Of a stretch of DNA of 64,000 bases, positions 16,512-43,270 are shown piece after piece; the first letter of the stretch is position 1, and every line of letters starts with the position of its first letter. The DNA comes from an uncultured Selenomonadales bacterium (lineage in GTDB: Bacteria > Bacillota > Negativicutes > Selenomonadales > Selenomonadaceae). The notes under the pieces are model-generated. The model had not been told where the DNA came from. It saw only the letters and a list, made by a program, of their open reading frames with translations, and ran no database searches. Location: the NCBI GenBank assembly GCA_946407095.1, contig CAMJMR010000001.1:32632-96631 (forward strand), given 5' to 3'. The position numbers and the translations under genes are program-made.

Positions 16512-16550
16512 TTAATCACTTCCCGAAATCTTAAAGCTGTAAAAATTTTT

Positions 16551-25525: not shown

Positions 25526-26484
25526 GGCAACAGAATTCGCAAATTTTCAGCCAAGAAGCTCTCGACAAATTACGCTCGCCCGAAAAACTCGATACCATGT
25601 TACCAATAACGACGCCCGTCAGCTGGATAGGACTAATCGCCGTATTGGTTTTATTATTTTCTGTCGTGCTGTGGTCGATTTATGGCGCGTTCACGGTCAA
25701 GGCGGACGGCATGGGGCTAATCATGGACTCGGCGGGCGTCATGAACGTTTCGCACACCGCCAACGGGAAAATCGCGCAGCTTTACGTTCGTCCCGGCACG
25801 CGGGTTAAAAAGGGCGACTTGATAGCGCACATGGAACAGGCTCAACAATCCGCCGACACTCGCATGGCGCAATACGGCATGGGCTTGGCGTCAAGCGACC
25901 GCGACGCTATGGGGCGCGCTTACCAATACGACGCCAAACGCTATCAGCAGGACGTGGCGGAGGATATTTACAGCGACTACGACGGCATTGTTGATGAAGT
26001 TATGGTGGACGTCGGGACGCTCGTCACTGCCGGCACCCCGATTTGCTCGGTGCGCATGACCCAAAACCGCGACGACTTGACGGGCTTGCTGTACATTCCG
26101 CTCGACAAGGGCAAGCGCGTCGAAGCGGGTATGACGATTCAGCTCGCTCCCAACGGCGCGGACGTTTCGCAAACGGGCTCGTTGCTCGGCGTCGTGCGTT
26201 CCGTTTCCCAATACCCGATAACCGCGCAGGGCATTCAGCAACACCTCGGCAATCCCCAACTCGCGCAATGGATTTTACAGGCGCAAAACTCTTCGCTAAT
26301 GGAAGTGACTTTCGACCTCGTCAAAGACGCGGACGACAAGTCGGGCTACCTGTGGACTTCTCACGTCGGCGAACACAAACCCGTAACGGCGGGCTCGTTC
26401 TGTACGGGCTCGATTATCATTGAGCGCAAGCCGCCGATTGAAAAAGTTTTCTACAAGCTCAGTCAGTGGCTAAGGAACAGATGA
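25522..26484 (+). CDS. NHLP/NHLM bacteriocin-system secretion protein (HlyD family)
   Basis: 320 aa ORF. IFSQEALDKLRSPEKLDTMLPITTPVSWI... is the typical N-terminus of the NHLM_micro_HlyD family. It is coupled to the two ABC genes downstream. Confidence 0.8.
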   Translation: MRQQNSQIFSQEALDKLRSPEKLDTMLPITTPVSWIGLIAVLVLLFSVVLWSIYGAFTVKADGMGLIMDSAGVMNVSHTANGKIAQLYVRPGTRVKKGDLIAHMEQAQQSADTRMAQYGMGLASSDRDAMGRAYQYDAKRYQQDVAEDIYSDYDGIVDEVMVDVGTLVTAGTPICSVRMTQNRDDLTGLLYIPLDKGKRVEAGMTIQLAPNGADVSQTGSLLGVVRSVSQYPITAQGIQQHLGNPQLAQWILQAQNSSLMEVTFDLVKDADDKSGYLWTSHVGEHKPVTAGSFCTGSIIIERKPPIEKVFYKLSQWLRNR

Positions 26485-28700
26485 TGGAAATAATTGACAA
26501 GATAAAAGATTTTTTCGGCCTCGGTAAGTCTCGCGTCAAAGTGCCGACGATTTTGCAAATGGAGGCGACCGAATGCGGCGCGGCTTCCTTGTCGATGATT
26601 TTGTCTCATTACGGCTTGTGGCTGCCGCTGGAAAAGCTTCGTCAAGAATGCGGCGTCAATCGCGACGGCTCAAAGGCAAGTTGCGTGATTCGGGCGGCTC
26701 GCAATCGCGGGTGCACCGCCAACGGCTATCGCTGGAAGGCCGACCGACTCAAAGAGCTGATGGAGTTCCCGCTGATTATTCACTGGGAATTTAATCACTT
26801 CGTCGTGCTGGAGGGCATTAAGGGCGACACGGTTTATCTGAACGACCCCGCGATGGGCAGGCGCACCGTCAAGTGGGATGATTTCCGCACGTCTTACACG
26901 GGCGTGGCGTTGCACGTCGTCCCCAATGAGGCTTTCAAGCGCGAAGGCGAACGCTACAACATCTTCAAGGACGTGGCAAGGAAACTCGCGAAGGACAAGT
27001 GGGCGGTGCTGTTCATTGTCCTGCTCAACCTCGGCATGATTATTCCGGGGCTCGCCTCGCCGGTCTTCAGCCAAATTTTCCTCGACGACATACTGACCAA
27101 AAAGCATCCCGATTGGATGTTCAACTTCTGCCTGGCAATGACGGTGTCTTGGGTCGTGTGCGGCTTCATGACGTGGCTACAAGCCGTTATCTTGACGCGC
27201 TGGCAACAAAAATTGACGCTCGCCGACTCAAGCAGTTTCTTCTGGCACCTGTTGCGCTTGCCCATGCAGTTTTTCAATCAGCGTTTCGCGGGCGAAGTGG
27301 CGTCGCGCGTCAACTTCAACGAATCAATCGCGGGCGTCTTATCGGGGCCGGCGGCATTGGCGATTCTGAATTTCCTCGTCGCGATTTTTTATTTGCTGTT
27401 GCTGCTCCAATATCACGTGACCTTGACGCTGATAGGCATTTTCTTTTCCAGTATCAACATAATAATTTTCTTCGCCCTGCGCCGACACCTAACCGATATG
27501 AACATGAAAATTCAGCAGGACGCGGGCAAGGAATACGGCACGACCATGAACGGGCTCATGATGATTGAGACGATTAAGGCGAACGGCAACGAGTCCGATT
27601 TCTTCGCGAAGTGGGCGGGCTACCGCGCCAAAGTCCTCAAGGCGGGTCAAGACGTCGCGCTGTGGCAGATGACGGCAACGATTATCCCGACGCTGTTCGG
27701 CGGCATTAACGGCGCGCTGATTATGACAATCGGCGGCTTCTCGATAATGGACGGCGTTTTGACGGCGGGCATGTTCACTGCCTTCCAAAGTTTGATGGGC
27801 AGCTTTCAAGCACCTGTCGGCGCATTGCTCGGCTTAGGCTCGACGCTCCAGACGACCGAAATGCAAATGCAACGCCTCGACGACGTGCGCAAGTATGAAA
27901 TTGACGATTTGAATTGCTGCGATGAAAAACTTCCCGAAGGCAAGCCGATTGAACGCCTCAACGGCGAACTTGAGCTTAAAGATATCGACTTCGGCTACAG
28001 CCCGCTGGAAAAGCCGCTTATCAGCAAATTTTCTCTGCACATTGAGCCGGGGCATTGGGTGGCGGTCGTCGGCGAGAGCGGTTCGGGCAAATCGACCGTC
28101 GCCAAGGTCGTCACGGGCATTTACGAGGAATGGAGCGGCGAAGTTCGTTTCGACGGCGTGATTCGGCGTGAATTGCCCCGCGCTGTTATCGTCAATTCGA
28201 TTTCCGCCGTCGACCAAGACGTTTTCCAAATCACGGGCACGATTGCGCAAAACCTGTCGCTGTTCGACGATTCTGTTCGGCGCACGGACATCATTCAGGC
28301 GGCGAAGGACGCTTGCATTCACGAAGACATTTTGCAACTGGAAAAGGGCTACGATTCGGAAGTGTCGGAAGGCGGCTTGAACTTCAGCGGCGGGCAACGT
28401 CAACGCCTGGAGATAGCTCGCGCCCTTGCCACCAATCCGTCACTGCTTGTCCTGGACGAAGCAACCAGCGCGCTCGACCCCATGACGGAGCAAACCGTTC
28501 TTGAAAACATTCGGCGGCGCGGCTGTTCGTGCTTAATCGTTGCGCACAGACTTTCTACGATTCGCGATTGCGACGAGATTATCGTCTTGCAACACGGACA
28601 AGTCGTCGAACGCGGCACGCATCGCGAAATGATTCAGCACGACGGAGCGTATAAGCGGCTGATTGAGGAACGAAGTCAGGAGAGTGACGCGCTTGAGTAA
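26466..28700 (+). CDS. Bacteriocin export ABC transporter, C39 peptidase/permease/ATPase subunit
   Basis: 744 aa ORF with a C39 domain (QMEATECGAASLSMIL...HFVVLEG), six transmembrane helices, Walker A GESGSGKST and signature FSGGQRQRLEIARAL. Confidence 0.9.
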   Translation: MAKEQMMEIIDKIKDFFGLGKSRVKVPTILQMEATECGAASLSMILSHYGLWLPLEKLRQECGVNRDGSKASCVIRAARNRGCTANGYRWKADRLKELMEFPLIIHWEFNHFVVLEGIKGDTVYLNDPAMGRRTVKWDDFRTSYTGVALHVVPNEAFKREGERYNIFKDVARKLAKDKWAVLFIVLLNLGMIIPGLASPVFSQIFLDDILTKKHPDWMFNFCLAMTVSWVVCGFMTWLQAVILTRWQQKLTLADSSSFFWHLLRLPMQFFNQRFAGEVASRVNFNESIAGVLSGPAALAILNFLVAIFYLLLLLQYHVTLTLIGIFFSSINIIIFFALRRHLTDMNMKIQQDAGKEYGTTMNGLMMIETIKANGNESDFFAKWAGYRAKVLKAGQDVALWQMTATIIPTLFGGINGALIMTIGGFSIMDGVLTAGMFTAFQSLMGSFQAPVGALLGLGSTLQTTEMQMQRLDDVRKYEIDDLNCCDEKLPEGKPIERLNGELELKDIDFGYSPLEKPLISKFSLHIEPGHWVAVVGESGSGKSTVAKVVTGIYEEWSGEVRFDGVIRRELPRAVIVNSISAVDQDVFQITGTIAQNLSLFDDSVRRTDIIQAAKDACIHEDILQLEKGYDSEVSEGGLNFSGGQRQRLEIARALATNPSLLVLDEATSALDPMTEQTVLENIRRRGCSCLIVAHRLSTIRDCDEIIVLQHGQVVERGTHREMIQHDGAYKRLIEERSQESDALE

Positions 28701-31383
28701 AAATTTTTCGCTTAAGGCCGGCGAACGCTTTCGATTGCAGGACGGCGAACGGCTCGCGCTGATTGAGTCGGGCAAGGTCGAAGTCTACGTCGTCACTCGC
28801 GCCGAGGGTTCCTTCCGTCAGCAATTCTTGGTTGAGTTGACGGCGGGGGAGGCGGCTTTCCCGTCGCTTGACGAATTTGAGCAGACCGAAACGCTGATTT
28901 ACGCCGCCGAAGACTCGCAAATAAAAATCCTCACGTTCGACGAAGCAGAGCCCGCCGCGTTGAAAAATTTCATGCGCAACTGGTTCGCCGAGCTGATTAA
29001 GTTGCCGTGGCTGCGCCTGCTTGCCGACAAGGGCGACGACGTTCTAATCACGTGGCTGGACGGCACGGTTCTGGAGGGCGCGGACGATTTGACCGACGCC
29101 TTCCGCGAAAACGAAGAAATTTTTTCAATGCTGTTGGGCGTGCGCTTCCAAGCGGAGGATAAGCGTTTCTCTCAACGCGTCGAAGTCCGCACGCGCAATC
29201 AGCGGCGACTGCTTGACAACTCGATAGCAAACCTCCTCGGCGAAGAAACGACCCAATACAGCGAAACGACCGAACGCGCCGAACTTTTGGAGGAGGCGTC
29301 TTTTATCGTGCGGCGGGCTGCCGTTGCGCTGAACATGCCGACCGACAACATCAAACTCGACCCCGAAATCGTTCGCAAGCTCGACCAAATCAGATTGATT
29401 CGGCGGCTCGTTCAAAAGGGCAACATGCAGATGCGCCTTATCGAACTCGTCGAAGACTGGCATAAAAACGACAGCGGCGTCATAATCGGCTACTACGGCG
29501 AACGAAAGACCCTTGCCGTCTTCGTGCCGACCGCGCCCGACAAATACAAGCTAATCACCAAGGACAAGCCCGAAGGCATCCCGATAACCGACGACGTTGC
29601 CGCGCAGATTGACAGGAGTGCCTTTGAATGCTACGGCGGCTTCCCTGCGCGGGAACTGGGCATTCTCGACCTGATGAAGTTCATTTTCAAGCAGTGCTGG
29701 ATTTCCGACTACAAAACCGTCATCGTTATCAGCCTCGTATCGGGTTTGATTCCGTTGGCAATGCCGCTGGTGACGGAAACGATTTTCGCCGACATAATCC
29801 CGATTCTCGACCGTCAAGGGCTCGCGACCGTCACGCAGGTCATCATGGTCACAAGCTTCACGACGGCGTCATTGGGCATCGTCCGCACGATAGCCGTCAT
29901 GCGAATCACAACGCGCATGAACATGGCGACGGAGGCGGCTCTTTGGGGACGACTGCTCACCTTGCCGACGAAATTTTTCCGCCGGTTCACCTCCGGCGAA
30001 TTGGCAAGCCGCATGAACGGTATCAGCGTCATCAAAGGGCTCGTCAGCGCAGATTTTATCGGCGGGCTGTTCGGCTTCGTCTTCAGCTTCTGGAGCATCT
30101 TTTTGATGTGCTACTACAGCCTCAAGCTCACTGCGGTGGCGGTGGTTATCTGGTTCGTCTACGCGATTGTCACGGCGTTCATCTATCGGCGCGTCATAAA
30201 CTTTCAGCGCAGCCTTATCGCCGCCAACAACAAGGAGGCGGGCATTGTCCAACAGATTTTCAAAGGGCTTGCCAAGTTCCGCGAACACGGCGCGGAGAAT
30301 CAAGCTTACTGGTTGTGGAGCGGCGTCTTCGGCGAAACGTGGAAATGGAACTTGAAACTGCGCTGGCAAAGCAACTACAACATGATTATCGGCAGCGTTC
30401 AGCCGTTTATCTTGACGATGGCACTTTACTATATCGCGGTCTACGGCATTAACGAGGTCGGCCCCAACGGGCAAATGGTTCAAGGCATAACCTACGCGCA
30501 GTTCATTGCGTTCCAAGGAGCCTTCTCAAGCTTCAACGCCACGCTGAACGGGATTGTTCCGCTTGTCGGTCAATACTTCGCGATTCAGCCGCACATTGAA
30601 AACTTGCGCCCGATACTCAAGGAAGTGCCCGAAAGCGTCGGCGAAAAGGCGGACGCGGGCATTTTGAGTGGCGCGATTGAACTCAACGGCGTGACGTTCG
30701 CCTACAACGAGGGGCATGACGTTTTGCACGAAGTCAGCTTCAAGATAGCGGCGGGCGAGAACGTTGCGATAGTCGGGCGGTCGGGTTGCGGCAAGTCGAC
30801 GCTTGTAAGGTTGCTTTTGGGTTTCGAGACGCCGCGCAAGGGCTCAATCTACTTCGACGGTCAAGACTTGGCTGAACTCAACTTGCCGAGCGTCAGAACT
30901 CAAATGGGCGTCGTGTTGCAAAACGGTCAGCTCATGCAAGGCGACATCTTCACGAACATAATCGGCACCAACGCCTTGACGCAGGAGGACGCATGGCAGG
31001 CGGCCGAGGCGGCGGGCATTGCGGCTGATATCGCGATGATGCCCATGGGTATGCAAACCGTCATCAGCGAGGGCTCAACCAATATCAGCGGCGGACAACG
31101 GCAAAGGATTTTGATAGCCCGCGCCCTGGTTACCAAACCGTCAATCCTAATCTTCGACGAGGCGACCAGCGCGCTTGACAACCGAACTCAAGCCATCGTC
31201 ACAAAGAGCCTGGACAGCCTCAACGCCACGCGAATAATCGTTGCCCACCGCTTGTCGACGATTCGCAACTGCGACAGGATTTTGGTCATGGACGCGGGCA
31301 GGATTGTCGAGAACGGCACCTTCGACGATTTGGTTGCGCAAGGCGGGATTTTTGCTAACTTGGTCAAACGTCAGACGGCTTAA
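28684..31383 (+). CDS. Bacteriocin export ABC transporter, permease/ATPase subunit with an N-terminal cNMP-binding-like domain
   Basis: About 900 aa, with Walker A GRSGCGKST and signature ISGGQRQRILIARAL. The GTG at 28684 is preceded by AGGAGA. The track ORF begins at TTG 28663. Confidence 0.88.
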   Translation: MTRLSKNFSLKAGERFRLQDGERLALIESGKVEVYVVTRAEGSFRQQFLVELTAGEAAFPSLDEFEQTETLIYAAEDSQIKILTFDEAEPAALKNFMRNWFAELIKLPWLRLLADKGDDVLITWLDGTVLEGADDLTDAFRENEEIFSMLLGVRFQAEDKRFSQRVEVRTRNQRRLLDNSIANLLGEETTQYSETTERAELLEEASFIVRRAAVALNMPTDNIKLDPEIVRKLDQIRLIRRLVQKGNMQMRLIELVEDWHKNDSGVIIGYYGERKTLAVFVPTAPDKYKLITKDKPEGIPITDDVAAQIDRSAFECYGGFPARELGILDLMKFIFKQCWISDYKTVIVISLVSGLIPLAMPLVTETIFADIIPILDRQGLATVTQVIMVTSFTTASLGIVRTIAVMRITTRMNMATEAALWGRLLTLPTKFFRRFTSGELASRMNGISVIKGLVSADFIGGLFGFVFSFWSIFLMCYYSLKLTAVAVVIWFVYAIVTAFIYRRVINFQRSLIAANNKEAGIVQQIFKGLAKFREHGAENQAYWLWSGVFGETWKWNLKLRWQSNYNMIIGSVQPFILTMALYYIAVYGINEVGPNGQMVQGITYAQFIAFQGAFSSFNATLNGIVPLVGQYFAIQPHIENLRPILKEVPESVGEKADAGILSGAIELNGVTFAYNEGHDVLHEVSFKIAAGENVAIVGRSGCGKSTLVRLLLGFETPRKGSIYFDGQDLAELNLPSVRTQMGVVLQNGQLMQGDIFTNIIGTNALTQEDAWQAAEAAGIAADIAMMPMGMQTVISEGSTNISGGQRQRILIARALVTKPSILIFDEATSALDNRTQAIVTKSLDSLNATRIIVAHRLSTIRNCDRILVMDAGRIVENGTFDDLVAQGGIFANLVKRQTA

Positions 31384-31435
31384 GGGGGATTTGGCATGAA
31401 GAATTTTTTGACGACCTTAAGCGCGGCGATTGAGT

Positions 31436-31528
31436 GGGCTAGCAATGCGCAGCGTTGCGTTTTGACGCGGCGAATACGTTTGAATCATGAGCGACACGGC
31501 GCGCTATCCGGATGCAACGTCACGTTGC
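31436..31528 (+). repeat. Family-1 element, copy 2 (subtype a)
   Basis: GGGCTAGCAATGCGCAGCGTTGCGTTTTGACGCGGCGAATACGTTTGAATCATGAGCGACACGGCGCGCTATCCGGATGCAACGTCACGTTGC. Confidence 0.85.
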
Positions 31529-31609
31529 CGAACTTAGTCAAGCGTCAGACGGCTTAAGGGGGATTTGGCATGAAGAATTTTTTGACGACCTTAAGCGCGG
31601 CGATTGAGT

Positions 31610-31702
31610 GGGCTAGCAATGCGCAGCGTTGCGTTTTGACGCGGCGAATACGTTTGAATCATGAGCGACACGGCGCGCTATCCGGATGCAACGTCACGTT
31701 GC
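31610..31702 (+). repeat. Family-1 element, copy 3 (identical to copy 2)
   Basis: Identical sequence, 174 nt downstream of copy 2. Confidence 0.85.
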
Positions 31703-31744
31703 CGAACTTAGTCAAGCGTCAGACGGCTTAAGGAGTGATTCGTT

Positions 31745-33250
31745 ATGAAAAAATTTTTGGCGGCTTTAGCGACAGCGGCGTTACTTTTTCCGAACACGAC
31801 TCAAGCCGCCGAAGGCGTGAGTTTGACGCTTGACGACGCGATTGAACTTGCGCTGAAGAACAACCGCCTAATCGAGCAGTCGACGGCGGACAGGGAGGCA
31901 GCCAAGTGGAATTTGTCAGCCGTGCGCCGCAATGCGGGTCCCATACTCAGCTGGTCTTCGTCGTTAAACCATATCGGCGGCAGATTTTATCGCAGAAACT
32001 ATCGCAACATCAGGGACGATGTCAAAGCGCGAAATGCGGAGTACAGAGCGACTTACGGCTACGAGCCCTACAACATGAATCTTTACCCGAATTACAATTA
32101 CGAAGGCACGCACAGCTTGACGTTGCGAATGCCGGTGTACACGGGCGGGCGTCTTGAGAATCAGCGGGAGTCAGCGCGCTACACTCTGAACGCTGCCGAT
32201 TTGACGCTTGAAAATTCTCGTCAGCAAGTCAAGTACCAAGCGGCGGCGGCTTACTATCGCGTCCTTCAGCAAGAAAGTTTGGTCGGCGTGCAGGAGCAGG
32301 CGGTTCGGCTTTTGCAAGAGCACTTGCGCATGGTTTCCACCCAATACGAAGTCGGCACCGTCGCCAAGTCGGATGTGCTTGCCACCAACGTTCAGCTTGC
32401 CAACAGCCAACAGAGCTTGACCACCGCGCAGGGCAATTATCAAACCGCCGTCGCGCAACTCAACAACGTTTTGGGTTTGCCCGTCGACACCGAAATTGCC
32501 GCGAGCGATAAGATTAATTTCGTCAAATACGGCTTGAGCGAGGCTGATTGCCTTGACTACGCCTTGAGCCACCGCCCCGACGGAATTGCCGCCGTTTACG
32601 CCGCCAAGCGAGCCGGAGCTGATGTTTCCGCCGCAAAGAGCGGTTTTCGCCCGAATGTTTCGGCTATCGTGCAAGGAATAGCCACGGGCGAAAGTTACTT
32701 CAAAGCAGACCATCGAAGCGAACGTTTGTCGGTCGGCGTCGAGATGACTTGGAATATTTTCGACAACGGCATTACCTCCGCGCAGGTTCAGCAATACAAG
32801 GCCGTCGAGCGCAGAGCCGAGTCGGTCGCCCGCCAACAGATTGAAACGATTCAGCTTGAAGTGCACAGCGCGTATATCGCCTTGAAGACCGCCGAGAAAA
32901 ATATCGAGACGACAGCCGCCGCCGTCGACAAGGCGGAGGAGGAATTCGCCATCGCGCAAGTCCGCTACGTCGAGGGCGTCGACACCAACTTGAACGTCAT
33001 GAACGCGCAGGAAAAGGTCGTCGAGACGCGCAACAACTACTACGCCGCCGTTTACAACTACAACACGAGCCGCGCGCAACTGGAAAAGGCAATGGGCGTT
33101 CCCGTCGCGATTGACGCGTTGCTTTACGCCGAAGCGGAACAGGAAGGCAAATCGTCGCCGAAGTCCTTGGAGGCGGCCGCCGTCAATCAAAATGATTCGT
33201 CGGAGGCTGAAGTCGTCAAAGAATCGCCCGCGCCCTTCGACAAGCAATGA
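31745..33250 (+). CDS. TolC-family outer-membrane efflux protein
   Basis: 501 aa ORF with a signal peptide MKKFLAALATAALLFPNTTQA and two repeated TolC halves (...LTLDDAIELALKNNRLIEQ...). Confidence 0.9.
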   Translation: MKKFLAALATAALLFPNTTQAAEGVSLTLDDAIELALKNNRLIEQSTADREAAKWNLSAVRRNAGPILSWSSSLNHIGGRFYRRNYRNIRDDVKARNAEYRATYGYEPYNMNLYPNYNYEGTHSLTLRMPVYTGGRLENQRESARYTLNAADLTLENSRQQVKYQAAAAYYRVLQQESLVGVQEQAVRLLQEHLRMVSTQYEVGTVAKSDVLATNVQLANSQQSLTTAQGNYQTAVAQLNNVLGLPVDTEIAASDKINFVKYGLSEADCLDYALSHRPDGIAAVYAAKRAGADVSAAKSGFRPNVSAIVQGIATGESYFKADHRSERLSVGVEMTWNIFDNGITSAQVQQYKAVERRAESVARQQIETIQLEVHSAYIALKTAEKNIETTAAAVDKAEEEFAIAQVRYVEGVDTNLNVMNAQEKVVETRNNYYAAVYNYNTSRAQLEKAMGVPVAIDALLYAEAEQEGKSSPKSLEAAAVNQNDSSEAEVVKESPAPFDKQ

Positions 33251-34671: not shown

Positions 34672-37600
34672 TCACTTTCCTGCGAGAATTTTGTAGCCGT
34701 TAATGCGTTCTTCGGCATCGTGCTGTGTCTTTTCAAAGAGAGCCTGCGCGGCGTCGGGGAAGTTGCGCTTCAAGGACGAATAACGGACTTCGCCCATAAG
34801 GAATTCTTGGAACTTGCTGAAGTCGGGCTCCTTGCTGTCGAGCGTGAAAGGATTCTTGCCCGCCGCTGCGAGTTGAGGATTGAAACGCCAATTAGCCCAG
34901 TAGCCGCACTGAACGGCGAGCTTGCCCTCCAGTTGGCTTGAACCCATGCCCTTGCGTATGCCGTGATTGATGCAGGGCGCGTAGGCGATAATCAACGACG
35001 GACCGGGATAAGCCTCCGCCTCCGTGACGGCTTTGAGCAGCTGATTCTGGTCTGCGCCCATCGAGACTTGCGCAACGTAGACGTAGCCGTAACTCATCGC
35101 CATCTTGCCTAGGTCTTTCTTCTTGGTGCGCTTGCCTGTCGCCGCGAATTGCGCGATAGCCGCAGCCGGAGTCGCCTTCGACGCTTGACCGCCCGTGTTC
35201 GAGTAGACTTCCGTATCGAAGACAAAGACGTTGACATCTTCGCCGCTTGCCAAAACGTGGTCAAGCCCGCCGTAGCCGATATCGTAAGCCCAGCCGTCGC
35301 CGCCGAGTATCCATTGCGAGCGCTTCACGAAAAAGTCGCGGTTGTCGAAGATTTTATTCAGCAGTTCGTCCGAGCCCTTTTGAGCGGCAAGCAACGCCGT
35401 CAACTTATCTGCGCGGTCGCGAGTGCCTTCGCTGACGTCGCGGTTGTCCTTCCAGTCGGTCAAAGCCGCTACCAGTTCCTTGTTCCTTGTTCCTTGTTCC
35501 TGAATTGCTTGTTCGACTTCGTTGGCCAACATTTCACGAATCGCCTTGACGCCGAGGAACATGCCCAAGCCGTATTCGGCGTTGTCTTCAAAGAGCGAAT
35601 TGCCCCAAGCGGGACCGTGACCCTTGAAATTTTTGGTGTAGGGCATTGCCGGTGCCGACGCGCCCCAAATCGACGAGCAACCCGTAGCGTTGGCAATCAT
35701 CATGCGGTCGCCGTAAAGTTGCGTCAAAAGTTTTGCGTAAGGCGTTTCGCCGCAACCCGCGCAGGCTCCGCTGAACTCAAACAGCGGCTTTTCAAACTGA
35801 CTGCCGATAACGGTCGTCTTCTTCGTCGGATTCTCTTTTTGAGCGAGCTTGACGCCGTAATCGAAAATTTTCTGCCGAGCCATCGCCTTGTCGTCGAACT
35901 TGACCATTTCCAACGCCTGCTTCGGACAAACCTGCGCGCAGTTGCCGCAGCCGAGGCAGTCGTAGGTTGAGACGGCGATTGTCACGTCATACTTGCCGCG
36001 AGAAATTTTCGACGGAATAGCCTCCATGCCTTCGGGCGCGGCCTTGAGTTCGTCTTCGGTCGTGAGAATCGGGCGAATAGCGGCATGCGGGCAAACGAAC
36101 GAACATTGATTACAGCCGATGCATTTTGACTTGTCCCACGCGGGAACTTTGATAGCCGTGCCGCGTTTTTCGTAGGCCGTGCCGCCGACGGGGAATGTGC
36201 CGTCCGCCAAGTCGACAAACTTGCTGACAGCCAACTCGTCGCCTTCCTGCCGATTCATGACGTTTTGGATGTCGGTGACGAATTCGGGCGGGTCGACTTG
36301 TTTCAGGTTGCGATTCATGCTTGTGTCGTCGACGTCCCACGTGCTTGTGTCGACTTTGTGCAGAGCCTCAATGCCCTTGTCAATCGCGCCGCAGTTCATG
36401 TCGACGACGTTTTGCCCCTTCGAGCCGTAAGATTTTTCGACGGCGTCCTTGAGGTACTTAACAGCCTCGTCAATCGGAATGATGTTCGCCAGCTTGAAGA
36501 AGGCGGCTTGCATGACCATGTTGAAGCGTCCGCCCAAGCCGAGTTCGCCCGCGATTTTCACGGCGTTGACGGTGTAGACTTGAATGTCGTTGTCCTTGAT
36601 GTAGCGTTTCATTGCGGGCTTGAGCTTATGACCGAGCTTTTCGTCGCTCCAGTCGGTGTTGAGCAGGAAGGTGCCGCCCTTTTTCAAGCCCGCGATAAGA
36701 TTGTAATGATGAACGTAGCTTTTCTGCGAGCAGCTTACGAAGTCGGGCTTGGTGATAAGATACGGCGAGGTTATGGGCAACTTGCCGAAGCGCAGGTGGC
36801 TCATGGTGATGCCGCCGGATTTTTTCGAGTCGTAGGCGAAGTAAGCTTGCGCGTAAAGGTCGGTGTTGTCGCCGATGATTTTAATCGCGGACTTGTTCGC
36901 GCCGACGGTGCCGTCAGAGCCGAGACCCCAGAACTTGCAAGCGGTCGTGCCTTCGGGCGTCAAGTCAACGTCGTGATGACCCGTCACGAGGGATTTGTTG
37001 GACACGTCGTCGTTAATGCCGATAGTGAAGCCGTCAAGCGGCGAATCCTTTTTGAGTTCGTCGAAGACCGCAAGCAGTTGGTCGGGCGTGGTGTCCTTGC
37101 CGCCCAAGCCGAAACGTCCGCCGACGATAACGGGCTTGTCGGCCACGTCGTAGAAAGCGGCTTTAACGTCAAGATACAGGGGCTCGCCGACGGAGCCGCT
37201 TTCCTTCGTGCGGTCGAGGACGGCGATTTTCTTTACGGTTTTGGGAATGGCGTTGAGGAAGTGCTTGACGCTGAACGGGCGGTAGAGGTGGACGCTCACG
37301 ACGCCGACTTTTTCGCCCTGCGCGTTGAGGTAAGCCGCCGCCTCGTTTGCGGTTTGACAGCCCGAACCGATAGCGATAATGACGCGGTCGGCATCGGGCG
37401 CGCCGCTGTAGTCGAAGATGTGATGTTCGCGCCCCGTGACCTTTGCCACGTCAGTCATAATCTCTTCGACGATATCGGGCAGGCGGTCGTAGTTGTTGTT
37501 GACGGTTTCGCGAATCTGGAAGTAGACGTCGGGATTGGTGGCGGTGCCGCGCATGACGGGGTGGTCGGGATTGAGGGCGTTGCGGCGGAAGGCGTTGACC

Positions 37601-38196
37601 GCGTCGAAGTCCAAAAGCTTTGCCAAGTCGGCGTAGTCAATCAGCTCAATCTTTTGAATCTCGTGACTGGTGCGGAAGCCGTCGAAGAAATTTATAAACG
37701 GAATGCGTCCCTTAATCGCCGCAAGGTGAGCCACTGCCGACAAGTCCATGACTTCTTGCACGCTTGACTCGGCGAACATGGCGCAACCCGTCTGCCGCGC
37801 CGCCATTACGTCTTGATGGTCGCCGAAGATTGACAGCGTCGACGTGGCCAGTGCCCGCGCAGATACGTGGAAGACGCCCGGCAACATTTCGCCCGCGATT
37901 TTGTACAGATTTGGTATCATGAGCAGGAAGCCTTGCGAGGCGGTGTAAGTCGTCGTGAGTGCGCCCGCTTGCAACGAGCCGTGAACGGTGCCTGCCGCGC
38001 CCGCCTCCGATTGCATTTCCACCAAACGAACTTTCTGCCCGAAAATATTTTTGACGCCATGCGCTGCCATAACGTCGACATCTTCAGCCATAGGCGACGA
38101 CGGCGTTATCGGGTAAATCGCGGCCACGTCCGTGAATGCGTAGGACACATACGCCGCTGCCTGATTGCCGTCCATCGTCTTCATTTTCTTGCCCAT
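34672..38196 (-). CDS. nifJ: Pyruvate:ferredoxin (flavodoxin) oxidoreductase
   Basis: 1174 aa ORF MGKKMKTMDGNQAAAYVSYAFTDVAAIYPITPSSPMAE..., with two 4Fe-4S ferredoxin motifs (CIGCNQCSFVCPH and CLGCGNCAQVCP). Confidence 0.96.
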   Translation of the reverse strand: MGKKMKTMDGNQAAAYVSYAFTDVAAIYPITPSSPMAEDVDVMAAHGVKNIFGQKVRLVEMQSEAGAAGTVHGSLQAGALTTTYTASQGFLLMIPNLYKIAGEMLPGVFHVSARALATSTLSIFGDHQDVMAARQTGCAMFAESSVQEVMDLSAVAHLAAIKGRIPFINFFDGFRTSHEIQKIELIDYADLAKLLDFDAVNAFRRNALNPDHPVMRGTATNPDVYFQIRETVNNNYDRLPDIVEEIMTDVAKVTGREHHIFDYSGAPDADRVIIAIGSGCQTANEAAAYLNAQGEKVGVVSVHLYRPFSVKHFLNAIPKTVKKIAVLDRTKESGSVGEPLYLDVKAAFYDVADKPVIVGGRFGLGGKDTTPDQLLAVFDELKKDSPLDGFTIGINDDVSNKSLVTGHHDVDLTPEGTTACKFWGLGSDGTVGANKSAIKIIGDNTDLYAQAYFAYDSKKSGGITMSHLRFGKLPITSPYLITKPDFVSCSQKSYVHHYNLIAGLKKGGTFLLNTDWSDEKLGHKLKPAMKRYIKDNDIQVYTVNAVKIAGELGLGGRFNMVMQAAFFKLANIIPIDEAVKYLKDAVEKSYGSKGQNVVDMNCGAIDKGIEALHKVDTSTWDVDDTSMNRNLKQVDPPEFVTDIQNVMNRQEGDELAVSKFVDLADGTFPVGGTAYEKRGTAIKVPAWDKSKCIGCNQCSFVCPHAAIRPILTTEDELKAAPEGMEAIPSKISRGKYDVTIAVSTYDCLGCGNCAQVCPKQALEMVKFDDKAMARQKIFDYGVKLAQKENPTKKTTVIGSQFEKPLFEFSGACAGCGETPYAKLLTQLYGDRMMIANATGCSSIWGASAPAMPYTKNFKGHGPAWGNSLFEDNAEYGLGMFLGVKAIREMLANEVEQAIQEQGTRNKELVAALTDWKDNRDVSEGTRDRADKLTALLAAQKGSDELLNKIFDNRDFFVKRSQWILGGDGWAYDIGYGGLDHVLASGEDVNVFVFDTEVYSNTGGQASKATPAAAIAQFAATGKRTKKKDLGKMAMSYGYVYVAQVSMGADQNQLLKAVTEAEAYPGPSLIIAYAPCINHGIRKGMGSSQLEGKLAVQCGYWANWRFNPQLAAAGKNPFTLDSKEPDFSKFQEFLMGEVRYSSLKRNFPDAAQALFEKTQHDAEERINGYKILAGK

Positions 38197-38263
38197 AAGC
38201 TATCAAAGTTCTCCTCTCAATTAAATTGCGGGGAATTATATCACGCGTCTATAAAAAAGTAAA

Positions 38264-38285
38264 CCGCGCCGCATATATTGAAAAG
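38264..38285 (+). repeat. Left 22-bp direct repeat bounding the low-GC insertion
   Basis: CCGCGCCGCATATATTGAAAAG, versus CCGCGCCGCATACATTGAAAAG at 39488-39509. Confidence 0.8.
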
Positions 38286-38335
38286 TTTCAAGCAAACATT
38301 TATAATAATAGAAAATAATTTTGGAGGGGAATTTA

Positions 38336-39480
38336 ATGATACGAATTCATCAAGGTCAAGTTTCGACTTCAGAAGACAATTCGACCCTGTCCACAGTGAT
38401 TGACATCGGTGATGTGAAAAAAAACGTTTGCCTTTCCGTCAGTAAAGAATATGGGCAATTTTTGTCGCCCGAACGCGCTGATTACGGACTTGTCGGAATG
38501 CTCGCCTATGCTCTGCGGAATAAGCACGACATCATTTGCGAGGCTCCCGTCACCGACGAATTACTCTACAACATTCGCGAATTGCTTATCCCGACGTTCG
38601 TCCGCAGCGACGCAAGAAATTATCCCGTCAAGATTAACGCGGAAGTTGCCCCGCCGCTTGATAAACTCGACGTTGCACAAGTAACGTGTGGGGGGGGGTT
38701 GGTACCGGTATCTCTTGCGGCGTAGACAGCTTTTATGCCGTTCTCAAACACTTTAATTCCGTTTATCCGAGCCGGAACTTAACGCACCTTTGCATTTTCA
38801 ATAACGGTTCGATTAACAGCTGCTATGGCGTGGAAAATATTCCGTACATTAAGCAGAAAGTTTTTGAGCGGGCGGAAGCCGTGGCTAAGGAATTTAATCT
38901 GCCGCTCCTCAAGCTTGAATCGAATTTCCAAGACGTAGTCCCGCAAAGTCACCTGCGAACGCATACCTATATGGATGCTTTAGCGATTTATTCCCTCCAA
39001 AAACTTTGGCGAACGTATTATTACAGCAGTACGTACTCTTTCGCTGATTTCTCCTTGCAAAAAAATTTTGATAACGATCCTGCGCATTTTGAGCCGCTCT
39101 TATGGGATTGTTTTTCCACTTCCAAGTTGAAAATAATTTCATCGGGCAGTGAGGGCGACCGCAACGATAAAGTTGATTTTATAGCCGACAACCCGATTGC
39201 GCAAAAATATCTGCACGTCTGTTTGAAAAAGGCTACGAATTGCGGCTGGTGTCCAAAATGCTTGCGGACACTCTTGGCACTGGACGCGGCGAACAAACTC
39301 GATAACTTCAGAGAATGTTTTAACATCGACGCCTACCTTAAAGCGCGCAATAAAGCTTTCGTCTATTTGTACAATACAATCAAAAAAGAACCCGACCAGC
39401 CTTTCTTCGCGAAGACTTACAAAATTCTTTACGAGCGCCATAAAAATTTTTTCGATAATCTGAGTAGTAAGAACAAATAA
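38336..39480 (+). pseudogene. PP-loop (adenine nucleotide alpha-hydrolase, QueC-like) protein gene split at a G9 tract; candidate phase-variable gene
   Basis: ORFs 38321..38725 and 38686..39480 overlap at GGGGGGGGG (38690-38698). Adding one G fuses them into about 381 aa carrying GISCGVDS (SGGxDS-like) and a C-terminal NCGWCPKCLRT zinc-ribbon-like motif. ATG 38336 is preceded by GGAGGGG. Confidence 0.6.
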
Positions 39481-39487
39481 TAGCACT

Positions 39488-39509
39488 CCGCGCCGCATAC
39501 ATTGAAAAG
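39488..39509 (+). repeat. Right 22-bp direct repeat bounding the low-GC insertion
   Basis: 21 of 22 positions identical to 38264-38285. Confidence 0.8.
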
Positions 39510-39546
39510 AGCCTCCCGCTTGCCGAGAGGCTCTAAATTTTTTTTT
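39508..39546 (+). terminator. Rho-independent terminator
   Basis: AGAGCCTC...GAGGCTCT stem followed by a T9 run. Confidence 0.6.
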
Positions 39547-39555
39547 ACGCCAAGT

Positions 39556-41106
39556 TTATTTGAGGAAGGGGAATTTCGCCTTCAAGTCGTCGGACACTTC
39601 GTCTTTGAGGTGCGGGTGCGGAATGCCGAAGTCCAGCTTGTAAAATTCCAATCGGTCAATCTCAAGCAGTTCGTTTTCGGGCACGAAGATAATTTTCTGC
39701 GAAGTGCGCTTGGGATAAATCCGCGCCGAAAGAACTTCCGCGCCGTCGTTTATGAAGACTTCGACGCTTGAGCGGTCGATAAAGATGTGGAGCTTGAGCT
39801 TTTCTTGCGGTTCGATTTGAATTTCGCGGACGGGAGTGAAGCCGCCGATAGGTTCGCCCGAATTGGTGCGGTCAAATTTGAATGTGCCGTCCGAATTGTA
39901 AGTCAAAACGGTTTGCTCGATGTCGGAGGCGCGCAGGGCAATGGAAAACTTTTTCGACTCTGCCGCGTCAATCGTCAAGACAAGTTCGCAAGCCTCGCCC
40001 GCCACGCCGTCGAAGGTCGTCGCCTCGTCAATCACAACGTCTTCAAGGATTATCGGCTTCCACTTGCGGAGCTTTTCAAGTTCTTTAACGGGCGTGGAGA
40101 AAATTTTTCCGTCCTTGACGTGAAGTTCGCGCGGGATACTCATATGCCCCGCCCAACCGTCTTTGGTCTCGTGCATTTCGACATTCCACATATCCAGCCA
40201 GCCGATCATGACCGTCCTGCCGTCGGGCGTTTCCATGACTTGCGGCGCATAGAAGTCAAAGCCTTTGTCGAGATATTGAAAGTCGCCGTGCGCGAAGAGT
40301 CCGTTTCTGTAGTTGAGCTTGCCGATAAGCACGCCCGCTACCTTGTCGAAATAAAATCTGCCGTCGTCGGTCGGCAAGTCCATAGGCGAGAAAACCAGCA
40401 CGTCTTCCCCGTCAATCTCTGCGAAGTTCGGGCATTCCCACATGCCGCCGAGAGTTCCGTCACTGCGCGCGGAAATTGCCTTGCACCGCCACGACTTGGT
40501 CAAGTCTTTCGACTCAAACAAAAGGATTTGCCCGTGAGCCATGTCGGGCGTGCGCGAGCCGAGTACCGCGTAATATTTGCCGTTGTGCACCCAAACTTTC
40601 GGGTCGCGGATGTCATGGATGGAAACGTCTTTGTCCGCAACTTCAATCTCTTCGATAATCGGATTCTTCGCGGACTTTTCAAAGTGAATGCCGTCTTCCG
40701 AGCTTGCAAGGCATTGGAATTCGATATGCCCGTAACCTATCGCGGCTTCCTCCTCCGGCGTCGCACTGAGGTGGCCGGTGTACATGAGGTAAAGCTTGCC
40801 GTCCTTTTCGATAGCGGAGCCCGAAAAACAGCCGCCGCCCGCCTCGTAGGGCTCTTCGGGCGTCAAAGCAATGGGCAAATGTTTCCAATAGGCCAAATCG
40901 TCGCTTACGACGTGACCCCAATGCATGGGACCCCAGCGCGGCTCGTAAGGGTAATGCTGATAGAAAAAGTGGTATTGCCCTTTGTAAAAGCACATGCCGT
41001 TAGGGTCGTTGCACCAGCCGAAGGGCGGCGCAATGTGATAGCGCGGGTACCAACGGGCGTCGGTTATTTGCGCGAAGGGTTGAAAGTTTTCAATTTGTTC
41101 TGCCAT
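39556..41106 (-). CDS. Glycoside hydrolase family 32 (sucrose-6-phosphate hydrolase / beta-fructofuranosidase-like)
   Basis: 516 aa ORF with the motifs WCNDPNG, RDPKV and MWECP. Confidence 0.9.
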   Translation of the reverse strand: MAEQIENFQPFAQITDARWYPRYHIAPPFGWCNDPNGMCFYKGQYHFFYQHYPYEPRWGPMHWGHVVSDDLAYWKHLPIALTPEEPYEAGGGCFSGSAIEKDGKLYLMYTGHLSATPEEEAAIGYGHIEFQCLASSEDGIHFEKSAKNPIIEEIEVADKDVSIHDIRDPKVWVHNGKYYAVLGSRTPDMAHGQILLFESKDLTKSWRCKAISARSDGTLGGMWECPNFAEIDGEDVLVFSPMDLPTDDGRFYFDKVAGVLIGKLNYRNGLFAHGDFQYLDKGFDFYAPQVMETPDGRTVMIGWLDMWNVEMHETKDGWAGHMSIPRELHVKDGKIFSTPVKELEKLRKWKPIILEDVVIDEATTFDGVAGEACELVLTIDAAESKKFSIALRASDIEQTVLTYNSDGTFKFDRTNSGEPIGGFTPVREIQIEPQEKLKLHIFIDRSSVEVFINDGAEVLSARIYPKRTSQKIIFVPENELLEIDRLEFYKLDFGIPHPHLKDEVSDDLKAKFPFLK

Positions 41107-42505: not shown

Positions 42506-43270
42506 ATGAGGAGCACAGAGACAAAACGCCGCATCCTCAAAGAGGCGAAGCTCGCCTTCGACGCGCTGATGAAATGCTATCCGTTCACGACGGACGACAT
42601 CGAAGGGGAAGAATGGCGCGACTACCCCAACTACGGCAACGGGGACTACCAAATCTCCACTTTCGCGCGCATTAAGTCTTTGAAAAACGGTCGCGTCAAA
42701 ATTTTGAAACCCTGGTTTAGCGGGGAATACATGCAAATCGAACTTTGCCAAGACGGCGTTCAAAAGACGTTCCAAGTCCATCGCCTCGTCGCCGAAACTT
42801 TCATCCCCAATTCCGATAACCTGCCTGAGGTGAATCATCGCGACGGGCGGAAGTACAACAACCACGTGTCAAATCTGGAATGGGTGACCCACGCCCAGAA
42901 CATGCGCCACGCCGTTGATACGGGTTTGCAAATTGGCTTGAGTGGCGAAGACAATCCGCGAGCTAAACTCATCGGTGAACAGATTGTTTACATTCGCGAG
43001 AATCCCGACGGCTTGACAGGCAAAGAATTGGCAGAAATGTTTGGCGTGTCTGAAATTGCGGTCAGTGATATTCAAACTGGTAAAACCTACAAAAATGTGG
43101 GCGGCAAAATTCGCGAGACAAAACGGAAACGCACCCCCGACGAGATTCGCGCCAAAATCCGCGCAGAGTACAGAAAGGGCGTCCCCGGTTGCGGCTTGCA
43201 GGCTCTTGCTAAAAAGTACAAGCTCAATCCAACGACAATACGCGACATAGTCAACAAGGACGAAGACTGA
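42506..43270 (+). CDS. Free-standing HNH homing-endonuclease-like protein (NUMOD4 + HNH_3 + C-terminal HTH repeats)
   Basis: 254 aa ORF ...EEWRDYPNYGNGDYQISTFARIKSL...VHRLVAETFIPNSDNLPEVNHRDGRKYNNHVSNLEWVTHAQN... Confidence 0.85.
   Translation: MRSTETKRRILKEAKLAFDALMKCYPFTTDDIEGEEWRDYPNYGNGDYQISTFARIKSLKNGRVKILKPWFSGEYMQIELCQDGVQKTFQVHRLVAETFIPNSDNLPEVNHRDGRKYNNHVSNLEWVTHAQNMRHAVDTGLQIGLSGEDNPRAKLIGEQIVYIRENPDGLTGKELAEMFGVSEIAVSDIQTGKTYKNVGGKIRETKRKRTPDEIRAKIRAEYRKGVPGCGLQALAKKYKLNPTTIRDIVNKDED

What the first reader, a model, noticed from the sequence alone, without database searches (positions are those of the whole stretch)
38264..39509. 1.2-kb low-GC insertion bounded by 22-bp direct repeats, carrying a PP-loop gene interrupted at a G9 tract
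Seen directly:
- CCGCGCCGCATATATTGAAAAG (38264-38285) and CCGCGCCGCATACATTGAAAAG (39488-39509) bracket a visibly A/T-rich segment in an otherwise high-GC region.
- The right repeat runs straight into a terminator, consistent with a duplicated target or att site.
- The segment has its own TATAAT and GGAGGGG signals and one gene, split into ORFs 38321..38725 and 38686..39480 at GGGGGGGGG (38690-38698).
- Adding one G, or removing two, gives a single protein of about 381 aa carrying GISCGVDS (PP-loop SGGxDS-like) and NCGWCPKCLRT (QueC-like zinc-ribbon).

Inference. This looks like a horizontally acquired single-gene cassette. Its expression may be switched by slipped-strand mispairing (phase variation). 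Alternatively the G9 is a homopolymer sequencing error.
Basis: partly seen in the sequence, partly recalled or inferred. Interest (0 to 1): 0.65.

Follow-up and report, generated by a model that had tools for sequence, protein, structure and literature searches.

The report
Poly-G switched orphan PP-loop enzyme gene
A rumen-type Selenomonadaceae genome carries a small, mobile, uncharacterised enzyme gene that a run of nine G's currently puts out of frame, and relatives show the same run flipping the gene on and off, which is the mark of a phase-variable gene.

Summary

- **One gene.** It belongs to a large unnamed family (3,377 clusters at E<=1e-10). Full-length members are about 380 aa.
- **Fold.** The AlphaFold model (pLDDT 93.7) is a QueC/QatC-like PP-loop ATPase with a four-cysteine motif. 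No Pfam, NCBIfam, PADLOC or PHROGs model matches.
- **Phase variation is well supported.** The tract sits at the same codons in divergent relatives, with G7-G11, both in frame and out of frame. One ortholog is G10 (intact) in some assemblies and G9 (broken) in others across 4,300 otherwise identical bases. The window has no other G/C run of 6 or more.
- **Likely role.** Distant members lie in surface-polysaccharide loci or are fused to cell-wall enzymes, which suggests a surface-glycan modifying enzyme.
- **The insertion reading is only partly right.** At least seven relatives have the gene beside PFOR, the left 22-mer is conserved promoter-region DNA, and no empty site was found. However, three or four homologous loci elsewhere also carry locus-specific flanking duplications, and the gene tree conflicts with location. 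The gene is mobile by an unknown route.

The parts
34672..38196 (-). Left neighbour: pyruvate:ferredoxin oxidoreductase (PFOR/NifJ, 1174 aa)
   Evidence: Pfam POR_N, POR, EKR, PFOR_II, Fer4 and TPP_enzyme_C. It is 90-96% identical to the PFOR that lies next to the same gene in L001, L005, L082, L085 and L164.
38235..38263 (-). Promoter-like site for PFOR (TTTACT-17-TATAAT with TG)
   Evidence: The sequence AAAAAGTAAAC is conserved in the PFOR-adjacent relatives.
38264..38285 (+). Left copy of the 22-mer. It lies between the two divergent -35 boxes and is conserved in relatives.
   Evidence: Orthologous copies of AAAC(C/T)GCGCCGCATAT.TTG..AAT occur in L005, L081, L082/83, L085, L164 and L174.
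38278..38306 (+). Promoter-like site for the gene (TTGAAA-17-TATAAT). Its -35 box lies inside the left 22-mer.
   Evidence: 11 of 12 positions match.
38323..38329 (+). Ribosome-binding site GGAGGGG, 6 nt before ATG 38336
   Evidence: Read directly from the sequence.
38336..38725 (+). ORF1: the N-terminal domain (residues 1-117), then the Gly run and an out-of-frame tail ending at TAG (129 aa)
   Evidence: It aligns with residues 1-120 of full-length homologues.
38690..38698 (+). G9 tract (the switch). It is in frame at G10 or G7 and encodes the Gly linker before the P-loop strand.
   Evidence: Homologous tracts of G7-G11 occur in relatives. The model's pLDDT drops to 69 at residues 111-120.
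38686..39480 (+). ORF2: PP-loop core, four-cysteine motif and C-terminal helices. The true coding part starts at the tract.
38713..38730 (+). P-loop codons S-C-G-V-D-S (residues 127-132 of the repaired protein)
   Evidence: S127, G129, D131 and S132 are invariant in 36 sequences. S[CG]GxDS occurs in 35 of 36 and SGGxDS in none.
39220..39261 (+). Cys motif C-x6-C-x2-C-x2-C (C296, C303, C306, C309), a putative Zn site
   Evidence: All four Cys are invariant. The motif is present in 36 of 36 sequences.
39488..39509 (+). Right copy of the 22-mer (one mismatch), found only in this lineage
39508..39546 (.). Two-way intrinsic terminator: hairpin 39508-39534 followed by AAA and T9
   Evidence: -15.4 kcal/mol on the + strand, -20.3 on the - strand.
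39556..41106 (-). Right neighbour: GH32 beta-fructofuranosidase. Synteny with the closest GH32 relative ends at 39549.
   Evidence: Pfam. L169 matches the window at 90% DNA identity only up to 39549.

Best explanation
The segment holds one gene for a roughly 381-aa cytoplasmic enzyme of an unnamed family with a QueC/QatC-like PP-loop fold. I infer that it forms an adenylated intermediate. The gene is currently in the OFF phase of a homopolymer switch.

**How the switch works.** A poly-G tract encodes the flexible Gly linker between the N-terminal domain and the P-loop strand. Slipped-strand mispairing during replication changes its length.
- G10 or G7 gives the full enzyme.
- G9, as here, stops translation after 129 aa and leaves the catalytic part untranslated.

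**What is shown.**
- The tract is conserved.
- Its length is polymorphic, and both ON and OFF states occur in relatives.

**What is inferred.**
- The same switching happens within this population.
- The enzyme modifies a cell-surface glycan or its peptide or acid substituent, probably by ATP-dependent amide formation. ON/OFF switching would then vary the cell surface, for example against phages.

**Mobility.** In this Selenomonadaceae clade the gene is an orphan, away from any polysaccharide locus. It behaves as a mobile or replaceable single-gene unit. The right-hand 22-mer is a lineage-specific duplicate of PFOR promoter-region DNA at a synteny break.
For: **One gene.**
- 271 homologues were found, with full-length members of 372-390 aa covering both ORFs.
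- All 36 invariant residues are intact in the repaired protein.
- dN/dS against intact alleles is 0.09-0.18, with dS above 1.

**The switch.**
- Out-of-frame alleles: window G9, L003 G8, L004 G7, L023 G7, L085 G8 and L167/L168 G9.
- In-frame alleles: L173 G8, L164 G9, L013 G9, L165/L166 G10 and L163 G11.
- L165/L166 and L167/L168 are identical over 4,300 nt apart from one G in the tract.
- About 22 of the roughly 60 closest database proteins begin at or just after the tract.
- GGG accounts for only 5 of 92 Gly codons outside the tract.
- The window has no other G/C run of 6 or more. In about 150 kb of related loci, every G/C run of 7 or more is this tract.
- The tract also occurs in a gene of 29% GC (L013).
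- OFF alleles would need a correction of +1 in some cases and -1 in others, and no stimulatory structure follows the tract.

**Fold.**
- The model has pLDDT 93.7 and pTM 0.92.
- The best PDB match is QatC (9y02_B, E 2e-5, aligned over 411 columns), followed by NAD synthetase and LarE.
- The best viral matches are phage QueC.

**Role.**
- Of about 165 loci, 56 have a Wzx-type flippase (PF01943) adjacent to or overlapping the gene.
- 73 of them have an FrhB/polysaccharide pyruvyl-transferase gene within 5 kb. GT2 and Acyl_transf_3 genes recur as well.
- Some members are fused to Mur ligase+VanY, Peptidase_S11, PGA_cap or sugar-transfer ATP-grasp domains.
- The tract-bearing alleles L013 and L023 lie in such polysaccharide loci.
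Against: - No read-level data exist for this window, so G9 is only a consensus. The two assemblies showing it may share reads.
- No ON version of this exact allele is in the database.
- Several clade members carry lesions away from the tract. L001 has an ACG start and extra frameshifts, L005 and L081 have frameshifts elsewhere, and L084 has a deletion of about 60 nt that removes the P-loop. Some lineages are therefore simply losing the gene.
- The window shows no polysaccharide locus next to the gene, so the substrate is unknown.
- The closest solved structure, QatC, is a defence protein rather than a glycan enzyme.
- The function is inferred only from context and fusions.
Confidence: 0.65

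Rival explanations
1. The G9 is a homopolymer miscall. The real gene has G10 and is a plain intact gene with no switching.
For: - Runs of 9-10 G are the lengths short reads call least reliably.
- Only consensus sequences were available.
- L080 may derive from the same reads as the window contig.
Against: - Orthologs with only G7, a length called reliably, are also out of frame (L004, L023).
- Both states of one allele recur: G10 appears in 2 assemblies and G9 in at least 2 BioSamples.
- About a third of the close homologues in the protein database are split at this spot.
- Random error does not explain why the tract is kept when synonymous sites are saturated.
Confidence: 0.1
2. The gene is an irreversibly decaying pseudogene. 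The tract is merely where the first lesion happened.
For: L001, L005, L081, L082/83 and L084 carry lesions that tract slippage cannot restore, or that lie outside the tract.
Against: - The window gene has no second lesion in 381 codons, and all invariant residues are kept.
- Long-term dN/dS is about 0.12.
- The tract is maintained in at least 10 divergent alleles, half of them in frame, and one allele is seen in both states.
Confidence: 0.12
3. Full-length protein is made from the G9 allele by programmed -1 ribosomal frameshifting or by transcriptional slippage on the G run.
For: - G GGG GGG is formally a slippery heptamer.
- RNA polymerase is known to slip on long homopolymers (established knowledge).
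Against: - OFF alleles in relatives would need shifts in opposite directions.
- ON alleles with in-frame tracts exist.
- No significant structure follows the tract (z = -1.4).
Confidence: 0.05
4. This rival concerns function. The orphan clade is an anti-phage defence gene working like QatC or Cap9, by ATP-dependent modification of a protein N-terminus, and is not a glycan-modifying enzyme.
For: - The best solved structural match is QatC, with the same three-part build: N-terminal extension, QueC-like core and C-terminal helices.
- The gene is an orphan with low GC and shows mobility.
- A PD-(D/E)xK-type HSDR_N_2 gene lies directly downstream in L164 and L082/83.
- Defence genes are often phase-variable (established knowledge).
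Against: - There is no PADLOC hit.
- The QatC signature motifs, and the strictly conserved SGGxDS, are absent.
- No QatA, QatB or QatD partner is present.
- Most family members sit in polysaccharide or cell-wall contexts.
- There is no phage homologue.
Confidence: 0.18

Closest known systems
QatC of the QatABCD anti-phage system (PDB 9y02; PMC13279940, PMC13376578)
   Same: - It is the best structural match (Foldseek E 2e-5, probability 1.00, aligned over almost the full length).
- It has the same build: an N-terminal beta/alpha extension, a QueC-like Rossmann core with a four-Cys site, and C-terminal helices.
   Different: - Identity is only 13%, TM-score 0.43 and rmsd 9.8.
- There is no PADLOC or Pfam match.
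- The P-loop is SCGVDS, not SGGxDS.
- The Cys spacing is C-x6-C-x2-C-x2-C, not C-x19-CGxC.
- The QatC motifs are absent.
- There are no qatA, qatB or qatD neighbours.
QueC, 7-cyano-7-deazaguanine synthase (PF06508; PMC13329287)
   Same: - It shares the PP-loop ATP-pyrophosphatase fold with a C-terminal Cys4 site.
- Phage QueC models are the best viral structural matches (TM-score 0.55-0.60 relative to the target).
   Different: - There is no PF06508 hit even at E<=1.
- YxQxHxxE, VPxRN, YPDC and C-x8-C-x2-C-x2-C are all absent.
- This protein has about 115 extra residues at the N terminus and about 70 at the C terminus.
- No queuosine-pathway genes lie nearby.
WbpG/WbuX-type N-acetyl sugar amidotransferases (PP-loop enzymes of O-antigen loci; PMC13329287, cluster 5)
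   Same: - They have a PP-loop enzyme of 300-400 aa with a Cys-rich motif.
- They are encoded inside surface-polysaccharide gene clusters.
- This is the closest functional analogy.
   Different: - There is no NCBIfam or Pfam match.
- The motifs SGGxDSxY, CxxC-x6-CxC and YDC are absent.
- The gene partners differ: a Wzx flippase, pyruvyl transferase, Mur ligase, VanY and ATP-grasp domains.
Poly-G/C contingency loci of Campylobacter, Neisseria, Haemophilus and Helicobacter (established knowledge, not searched here)
   Same: - An intragenic homopolymer of 7-11 G shifts the frame.
- ON and OFF alleles coexist.
- The typical cargo is a surface-glycan modifying enzyme.
   Different: - The host is a Negativicutes (Selenomonadaceae) gut or rumen commensal.
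- The gene family is uncharacterised.
- No paper linking homopolymeric phase variation with Selenomonas, or slipped-strand mispairing with rumen bacteria, was found.
Integron cassettes, mobile insertion cassettes and Neisseria minimal mobile elements (established knowledge)
   Same: A single gene with minimal non-coding DNA occurs at varied sites, with divergent alleles occupying the same site.
   Different: - No attC-like or terminal inverted repeats lie at the ends.
- No recombinase lies nearby.
- The flanking direct repeats are locus-specific copies of the left junction, of variable length: 22 nt, 43 nt and about 43-75 nt.

Membership tests
QueC family (PF06508) | Match to the Pfam model PF06508 | tested here: not met
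   No Pfam family at E<=1 for the repaired protein.
QueC family (PF06508) | SGGxDS phosphate-binding loop | tested here: not met
   The loop is SCGVDS. SGGxDS occurs in 0 of 36 family members and S[CG]GxDS in 35 of 36.
QueC family (PF06508) | C-x8-C-x2-C-x2-C zinc motif, plus the YxQxHxxE, VPxRN and YPDC motifs | tested here: not met
   All are absent. A related C-x6-C-x2-C-x2-C motif is invariant. The motif definitions come from PMC13329287.
PP-loop ATP pyrophosphatase superfamily (fold level) | Rossmann-like alpha/beta core with an N-terminal P-loop after strand 1, structurally similar to known members | tested here: met
   The model has pLDDT 93.7. Foldseek hits are QatC, NAD synthetase, LarE and phage QueC.
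QatC (QatABCD defence) | PADLOC QatC model, the QatC motifs, and a C-x19-CGxC Zn site | tested here: not met
   No PADLOC hit at E<=1 for 4 family members. The motifs are absent.
QatC (QatABCD defence) | Operon with qatA, qatB and qatD | tested here: not met
   The neighbours are PFOR and GH32. No such partners recur in about 165 loci.
WbpG/WbuX N-acetyl sugar amidotransferase | NCBIfam/TIGRFAM model match, plus the SGGxDSxY, CxxC-x6-CxC and YDC motifs | tested here: not met
   No NCBIfam family at E<=1. The motifs occur in 0 of 36.
Homopolymer (SSR) contingency locus | Homopolymer of 7 or more bases inside the reading frame, unusual for the genome | tested here: met
   G9 is the only G/C run of 6 or more in 64 kb.
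Homopolymer (SSR) contingency locus | The tract is conserved as a homopolymer across diverged alleles despite synonymous alternatives | tested here: met
   G7-G11 occurs in at least 10 alleles with dS above 1. GGG is 5 of 92 Gly codons elsewhere in the gene.
Homopolymer (SSR) contingency locus | Tract length is the only difference between otherwise identical sequences, giving ON and OFF states | tested here: met
   This is met for an ortholog: L165/L166 (G10) versus L167/L168 (G9), with 0 mismatches in 4,300 nt. It was not seen for the window's own allele.
Homopolymer (SSR) contingency locus | Length heterogeneity within one population (reads or colonies) | not testable with these tools
   No reads are available.
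Insertion sequence / mobile insertion cassette | Terminal inverted repeats and a fixed-length target duplication, with a transposase in cis or trans | tested here: not met
   No inverted repeats lie at the segment ends. There is only one gene. The flanking repeats vary in length between loci.
Site-specific integrated element (att sites) | An empty site with a single copy of the repeat in relatives, and an integrase | tested here: inconclusive
   No empty site was found. The GH32 relatives L169 and L170 diverge right after GH32. There is no integrase and no tRNA. Only a few relatives could be examined.

The most novel reading that the evidence does not exclude
The orphan form of this gene may be a recombinase-less mobile unit of about 1.2 kb, consisting of little more than a ribosome-binding site and the coding sequence. 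On this reading it inserts beside sites containing TTGAAAA and duplicates a variable stretch of the left junction: 22 nt in the window, 43 nt in L023 and about 43-75 nt in L173. That would be a way of moving a phase-variable surface-modification gene between genomes that matches no described cassette system.
Probability: 0.15. Interest if true: 0.8.

Novelty: new member of a known kind. Interest (0 to 1): 0.6.

Why it matters
**Phase variation in a new setting.** Homopolymer phase variation is textbook biology in a few pathogens but is hardly documented in gut and rumen commensals of the Negativicutes. This is a clean, testable example. It also includes a natural ON/OFF pair that differs by a single G.

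**An unnamed, widespread family.** The family has 3,377 clusters at 50% identity and is annotated everywhere as hypothetical. It now has several leads:
- a confident QueC/QatC-like model;
- a distinctive P-loop (SCGxDS) and Cys4 motif;
- consistent links to Wzx flippases, pyruvyl transferases, Mur ligase, D,D-carboxypeptidases and ATP-grasp enzymes.

Together these point to an unrecognised step in decorating cell-surface polymers.

**An open question about gene movement.** The recurring locus-specific flanking duplications raise the question of how single genes move without a recombinase.

Tried and rejected
**Searches that found nothing.**
- Sequence-family searches were empty: Pfam and NCBIfam at E<=1 and PADLOC. 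PHROGs gave only weak chance-level hits for other family members, and a PDB sequence-profile search gave one chance hit.
- Rfam found nothing around the locus, and the window holds no tRNA.
- There is no phage homologue. Only two Paracoccus yeei plasmid copies were found, also orphan and annotated hypothetical.
- RefSeq and UniProt name every checked member 'hypothetical protein'.
- No relevant paper turned up in the literature searches.

**Empty-site hunt.** I looked up the window's GH32 and its closest relatives at 95%, 85% and 83% identity.
- None has PFOR, the 22-mer or the gene downstream.
- The test is therefore negative but shallow.

**Ideas rejected.**
- Programmed frameshifting is rejected. 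The shift directions in relatives are inconsistent, and no downstream structure follows the tract.
- A transposase role for the N-terminal domain was considered because of weak RNase H-like Foldseek hits (probability up to 0.84). I rejected it: strand 1 has no conserved acidic residue, and most family members sit stably in operons.
- The L047 top score in the flank test was an indexing artefact and was ignored.
- L002's flanking similarity may simply be two similar terminators.
Full report
**1.
- The two 22-mers lie at 38264-38285 and 39488-39509 and differ at one base. They are the only matches in the window at up to three mismatches, and none occurred in 100 shuffles.
- The DNA between them has GC 0.44 against 0.54 for the window. 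The gene's GC3 is 0.52 against 0.68-0.73 for PFOR, GH32 and PFK.
- A near-consensus promoter (TTGAAA-17-TATAAT, 38278-38306) and GGAGGGG precede ATG 38336.
- ORF1 (to 38725) and ORF2 (38686-39480) overlap at G9 (38690-38698). One extra G gives a 381-aa protein.
- The right 22-mer overlaps by two bases a hairpin at 39508-39534, which is followed by T9. It folds well on both strands and also terminates the convergent GH32 gene.
- A second assembly is identical over 2.6 kb and also has G9.

**2. It is one gene of a large, unnamed family.**
- The repaired protein finds 271 homologues. More than 40 are full-length at 372-390 aa, with up to 78% identity.
- An alignment of 36 sequences has 36 invariant positions, all intact in the window protein. 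They include TG-S-G-DS around the P-loop and H-x-C-x5-NC-x2-C-K-C-x-R.
- A profile search of 1.84 billion representatives gives 3,377 clusters at E<=1e-10.
- Members checked in RefSeq genomes are all named 'hypothetical protein'.
- No Pfam, NCBIfam, PADLOC or PDB-sequence match exists.
- The closest relatives come from rumen and gut Selenomonadaceae, including Quinella MAGs. The window therefore comes from such an organism.

**3. The G tract behaves as a phase-variation switch.** In relatives, the DNA just 5' of the V/I-G-T-G-x-S-C-G-x-D-S codons carries a poly-G run at the same place:

| State | Alleles |
|---|---|
| Out of frame | window G9, L003 G8, L004 (Quinella) G7, L023 (Ruminiclostridium) G7, L085 G8, L167/L168 G9 |
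| In frame | L173 G8, L164 G9, L013 (Lachnospiraceae, 29% GC gene) G9, L165/L166 G10, L163 G11 |
| Tract interrupted, gene intact | L174, L161, L002 |

- **The ON/OFF pair.** L165/L166 and L167/L168 are the same locus. They are identical over 4,300 nt apart from one G, giving a 377-aa protein in one pair and a split gene in the other.
- **Split proteins are common.** About 22 of the roughly 60 closest database proteins start at or just after the tract.
- **The tract is not a composition effect.**
  - The window has no other G/C run of 6 or more. In about 150 kb of related loci, every run of 7 or more is this tract.
  - GGG is 5 of 92 Gly codons elsewhere in these genes.
  - Synonymous sites between alleles are saturated, with dS 1.2-3.5 and dN/dS about 0.12.
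- **The tract lies in a tolerant region.** It encodes a Gly linker where model confidence dips (pLDDT 69 for residues 111-120). Changes of three bases should be tolerated there.

**4. Rival readings of the frameshift.**
- **Sequencing error.** Only reads can exclude it for this window. It does not explain the out-of-frame G7 alleles, the recurrence of both states across assemblies, or the conservation of the tract.
- **Decay.** Some clade members are decaying. L001 has an ACG start and several frameshifts, L005 and L081 have frameshifts elsewhere, and L084 has a deletion that removes the P-loop. The window gene has no second lesion.
- **Programmed frameshifting.** It is unlikely, because relatives would need shifts in both directions and no structure follows the tract (z = -1.4).

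**5. What the protein is.**
- The AlphaFold model is confident (pLDDT 93.7, pTM 0.92). It has an N-terminal beta/alpha domain (1-115), a Rossmann-like core that begins right after the linker, a four-Cys site and C-terminal helices.
- The best PDB match is QatC of the QatABCD defence system (9y02_B, E 2e-5, near full-length, TM-score 0.43), followed by NAD synthetase and LarE. The best viral matches are phage QueC.
- The published QatC description has the same three-part build. However, the defining motifs of QueC, QatC and WbpG-type amidotransferases are all absent. The P-loop is SCGxDS and the Cys spacing is C-x6-C-x2-C-x2-C.
- It is therefore a separate family of the PP-loop superfamily. An ATP-dependent adenylating activity is inferred, not shown.

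**6. Likely role.**
- I compared about 165 loci. In 56, a roughly 510-aa Wzx-type flippase (PF01943) lies adjacent to or overlapping the gene. In 73, an FrhB-plus-polysaccharide pyruvyl-transferase gene lies within 5 kb. GT2 and Acyl_transf_3 genes recur as well.
- Long family members are fused to Mur ligase+VanY, Peptidase_S11, PGA_cap, sugar-transfer ATP-grasp or methyltransferase domains.
- Two tract-bearing alleles (L013, L023) sit in such polysaccharide loci.
- This points to decoration of a cell-surface glycan or its acid or peptide substituent, analogous to but distinct from WbpG.
- A QatC-like defence role for the orphan clade remains a minority alternative. An HSDR_N_2 gene follows the gene in L164 and L082/83.

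**7. Is it an insertion?**
- **Not a recent one at this site.** PFOR (90-96% identical) and the conserved element AAAC(C/T)GCGCCGCATAT.TTG..AAT precede the gene in L001, L005, L081, L082/83, L085, L164 and L174/175.
- **The left 22-mer is promoter-region DNA.** It lies between the PFOR -35 box (38263-38258, - strand) and the gene's own -35 box.
- **The right copy is a recent duplicate.** Only the window has one, and it resembles the window's own left copy more than any ortholog's.
- **The right flank varies.** The downstream neighbour differs between most of these relatives; only L082/83 and L164 share one. The closest GH32 relative (L169) loses similarity to the window at 39549. The right 22-mer therefore sits at a synteny break, and no empty site was found.
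- **The gene is nevertheless mobile.**
  - Its contexts are unrelated.
  - PFOR-adjacent alleles are not monophyletic. L085 is closest to L161, L005 to L002, and the window to L173.
  - I compared the upstream and downstream flanks of 136 gene copies against mismatched pairs (99th percentile score 13). Four orphan-clade loci stand out: L173 at 35.5, L002 at 27, L023 at 23 and the window at 19.5.
  - In L173 and L023 the left copy is the 3' end of the upstream gene, and the right copy is a displaced, partly decayed duplicate placed just after the stop codon.
  - The repeats of the window, L173 and L023 all contain TTGAAAA.
- **The route is unresolved.** Possibilities are insertion with a long, variable target duplication, one-sided homologous recombination with an illegitimate second join, or a tandem duplication followed by loss.

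**8. Verdict.**
- The window holds the OFF allele of a poly-G contingency gene encoding an uncharacterised QueC/QatC-fold enzyme, probably acting on the cell surface.
- The gene is carried as an orphan, replaceable single-gene unit.
- The switch is a known kind of mechanism in a new host group and a new gene family. The flanking duplications are the truly unexplained part.
- The main limits are the absence of read-level data and of any biochemical evidence.

Noticed in passing
L173:190-250 and 1417-1475; L023:7931-7973 and 9582-9624; L002:328-367 and 1626-1665: Homologous orphan genes at unrelated sites are also bracketed by locus-specific direct repeats of the left junction. In L173 this is the 3' end of an ABC ATPase gene, with a 17-nt gap in the right copy. 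In L023 it is the 3' end of a pyruvyl-transferase gene. The window, L173 and L023 repeats all contain TTGAAAA. The mechanism is unknown.
   Followed up: partly
window 42506-43270: A free-standing HNH_3 + NUMOD4 endonuclease gene (254 aa) starts in a low-GC patch between PFK and a shikimate dehydrogenase gene. A similar HNH/NUMOD4 gene splits an nrdD gene in L165 (about 15625-17134). These are likely homing-type mobile genes.
   Followed up: no
window 24353-33250: A type I secretion-like cluster: two HlyD-type proteins, a C39-peptidase ABC exporter, a second ABC exporter and a TolC-like OEP. The 3' end of an ABC ATPase gene about 77% identical in DNA to the second exporter's 3' end is the 'target' duplicated around the gene in L173.
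   Followed up: no
L164:1998-2486; L082 and L083 downstream of the gene: A small HSDR_N_2 (type I restriction R-subunit N-terminal, PD-(D/E)xK-like) gene follows the family gene directly in three PFOR-adjacent relatives. It is absent from the window.
   Followed up: partly
L002:1577-1630: Three tandem 18-nt units (TTGGACGCCGAAGAAAAA, translating to LDAEEK three times) extend the 3' end of the ortholog.
   Followed up: no
L169:2330-2560: Two copies of a hairpin element of about 50 nt (AAAACCCC..GCGCAG...CTG.ACGGGG.CTTCGTTTTGCCT) lie downstream of the closest GH32 relative, exactly where similarity to the window ends.
   Followed up: no
L013:6449-7492 and 8001-9029; also L016, L031, L037, L045, L049, L052, L054: Many genomes, including Methanomassiliicoccales archaea, carry two paralogues of the family in one locus. 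In L013 only one of the two has the G9 tract.
   Followed up: partly
L176 (Paracoccus yeei plasmid pTT13-1) 6440-8116: A 558-aa family member with an N-terminal extension sits alone among catabolic genes on a 328-kb plasmid, near an IS1182 transposase. It is another orphan copy.
   Followed up: no
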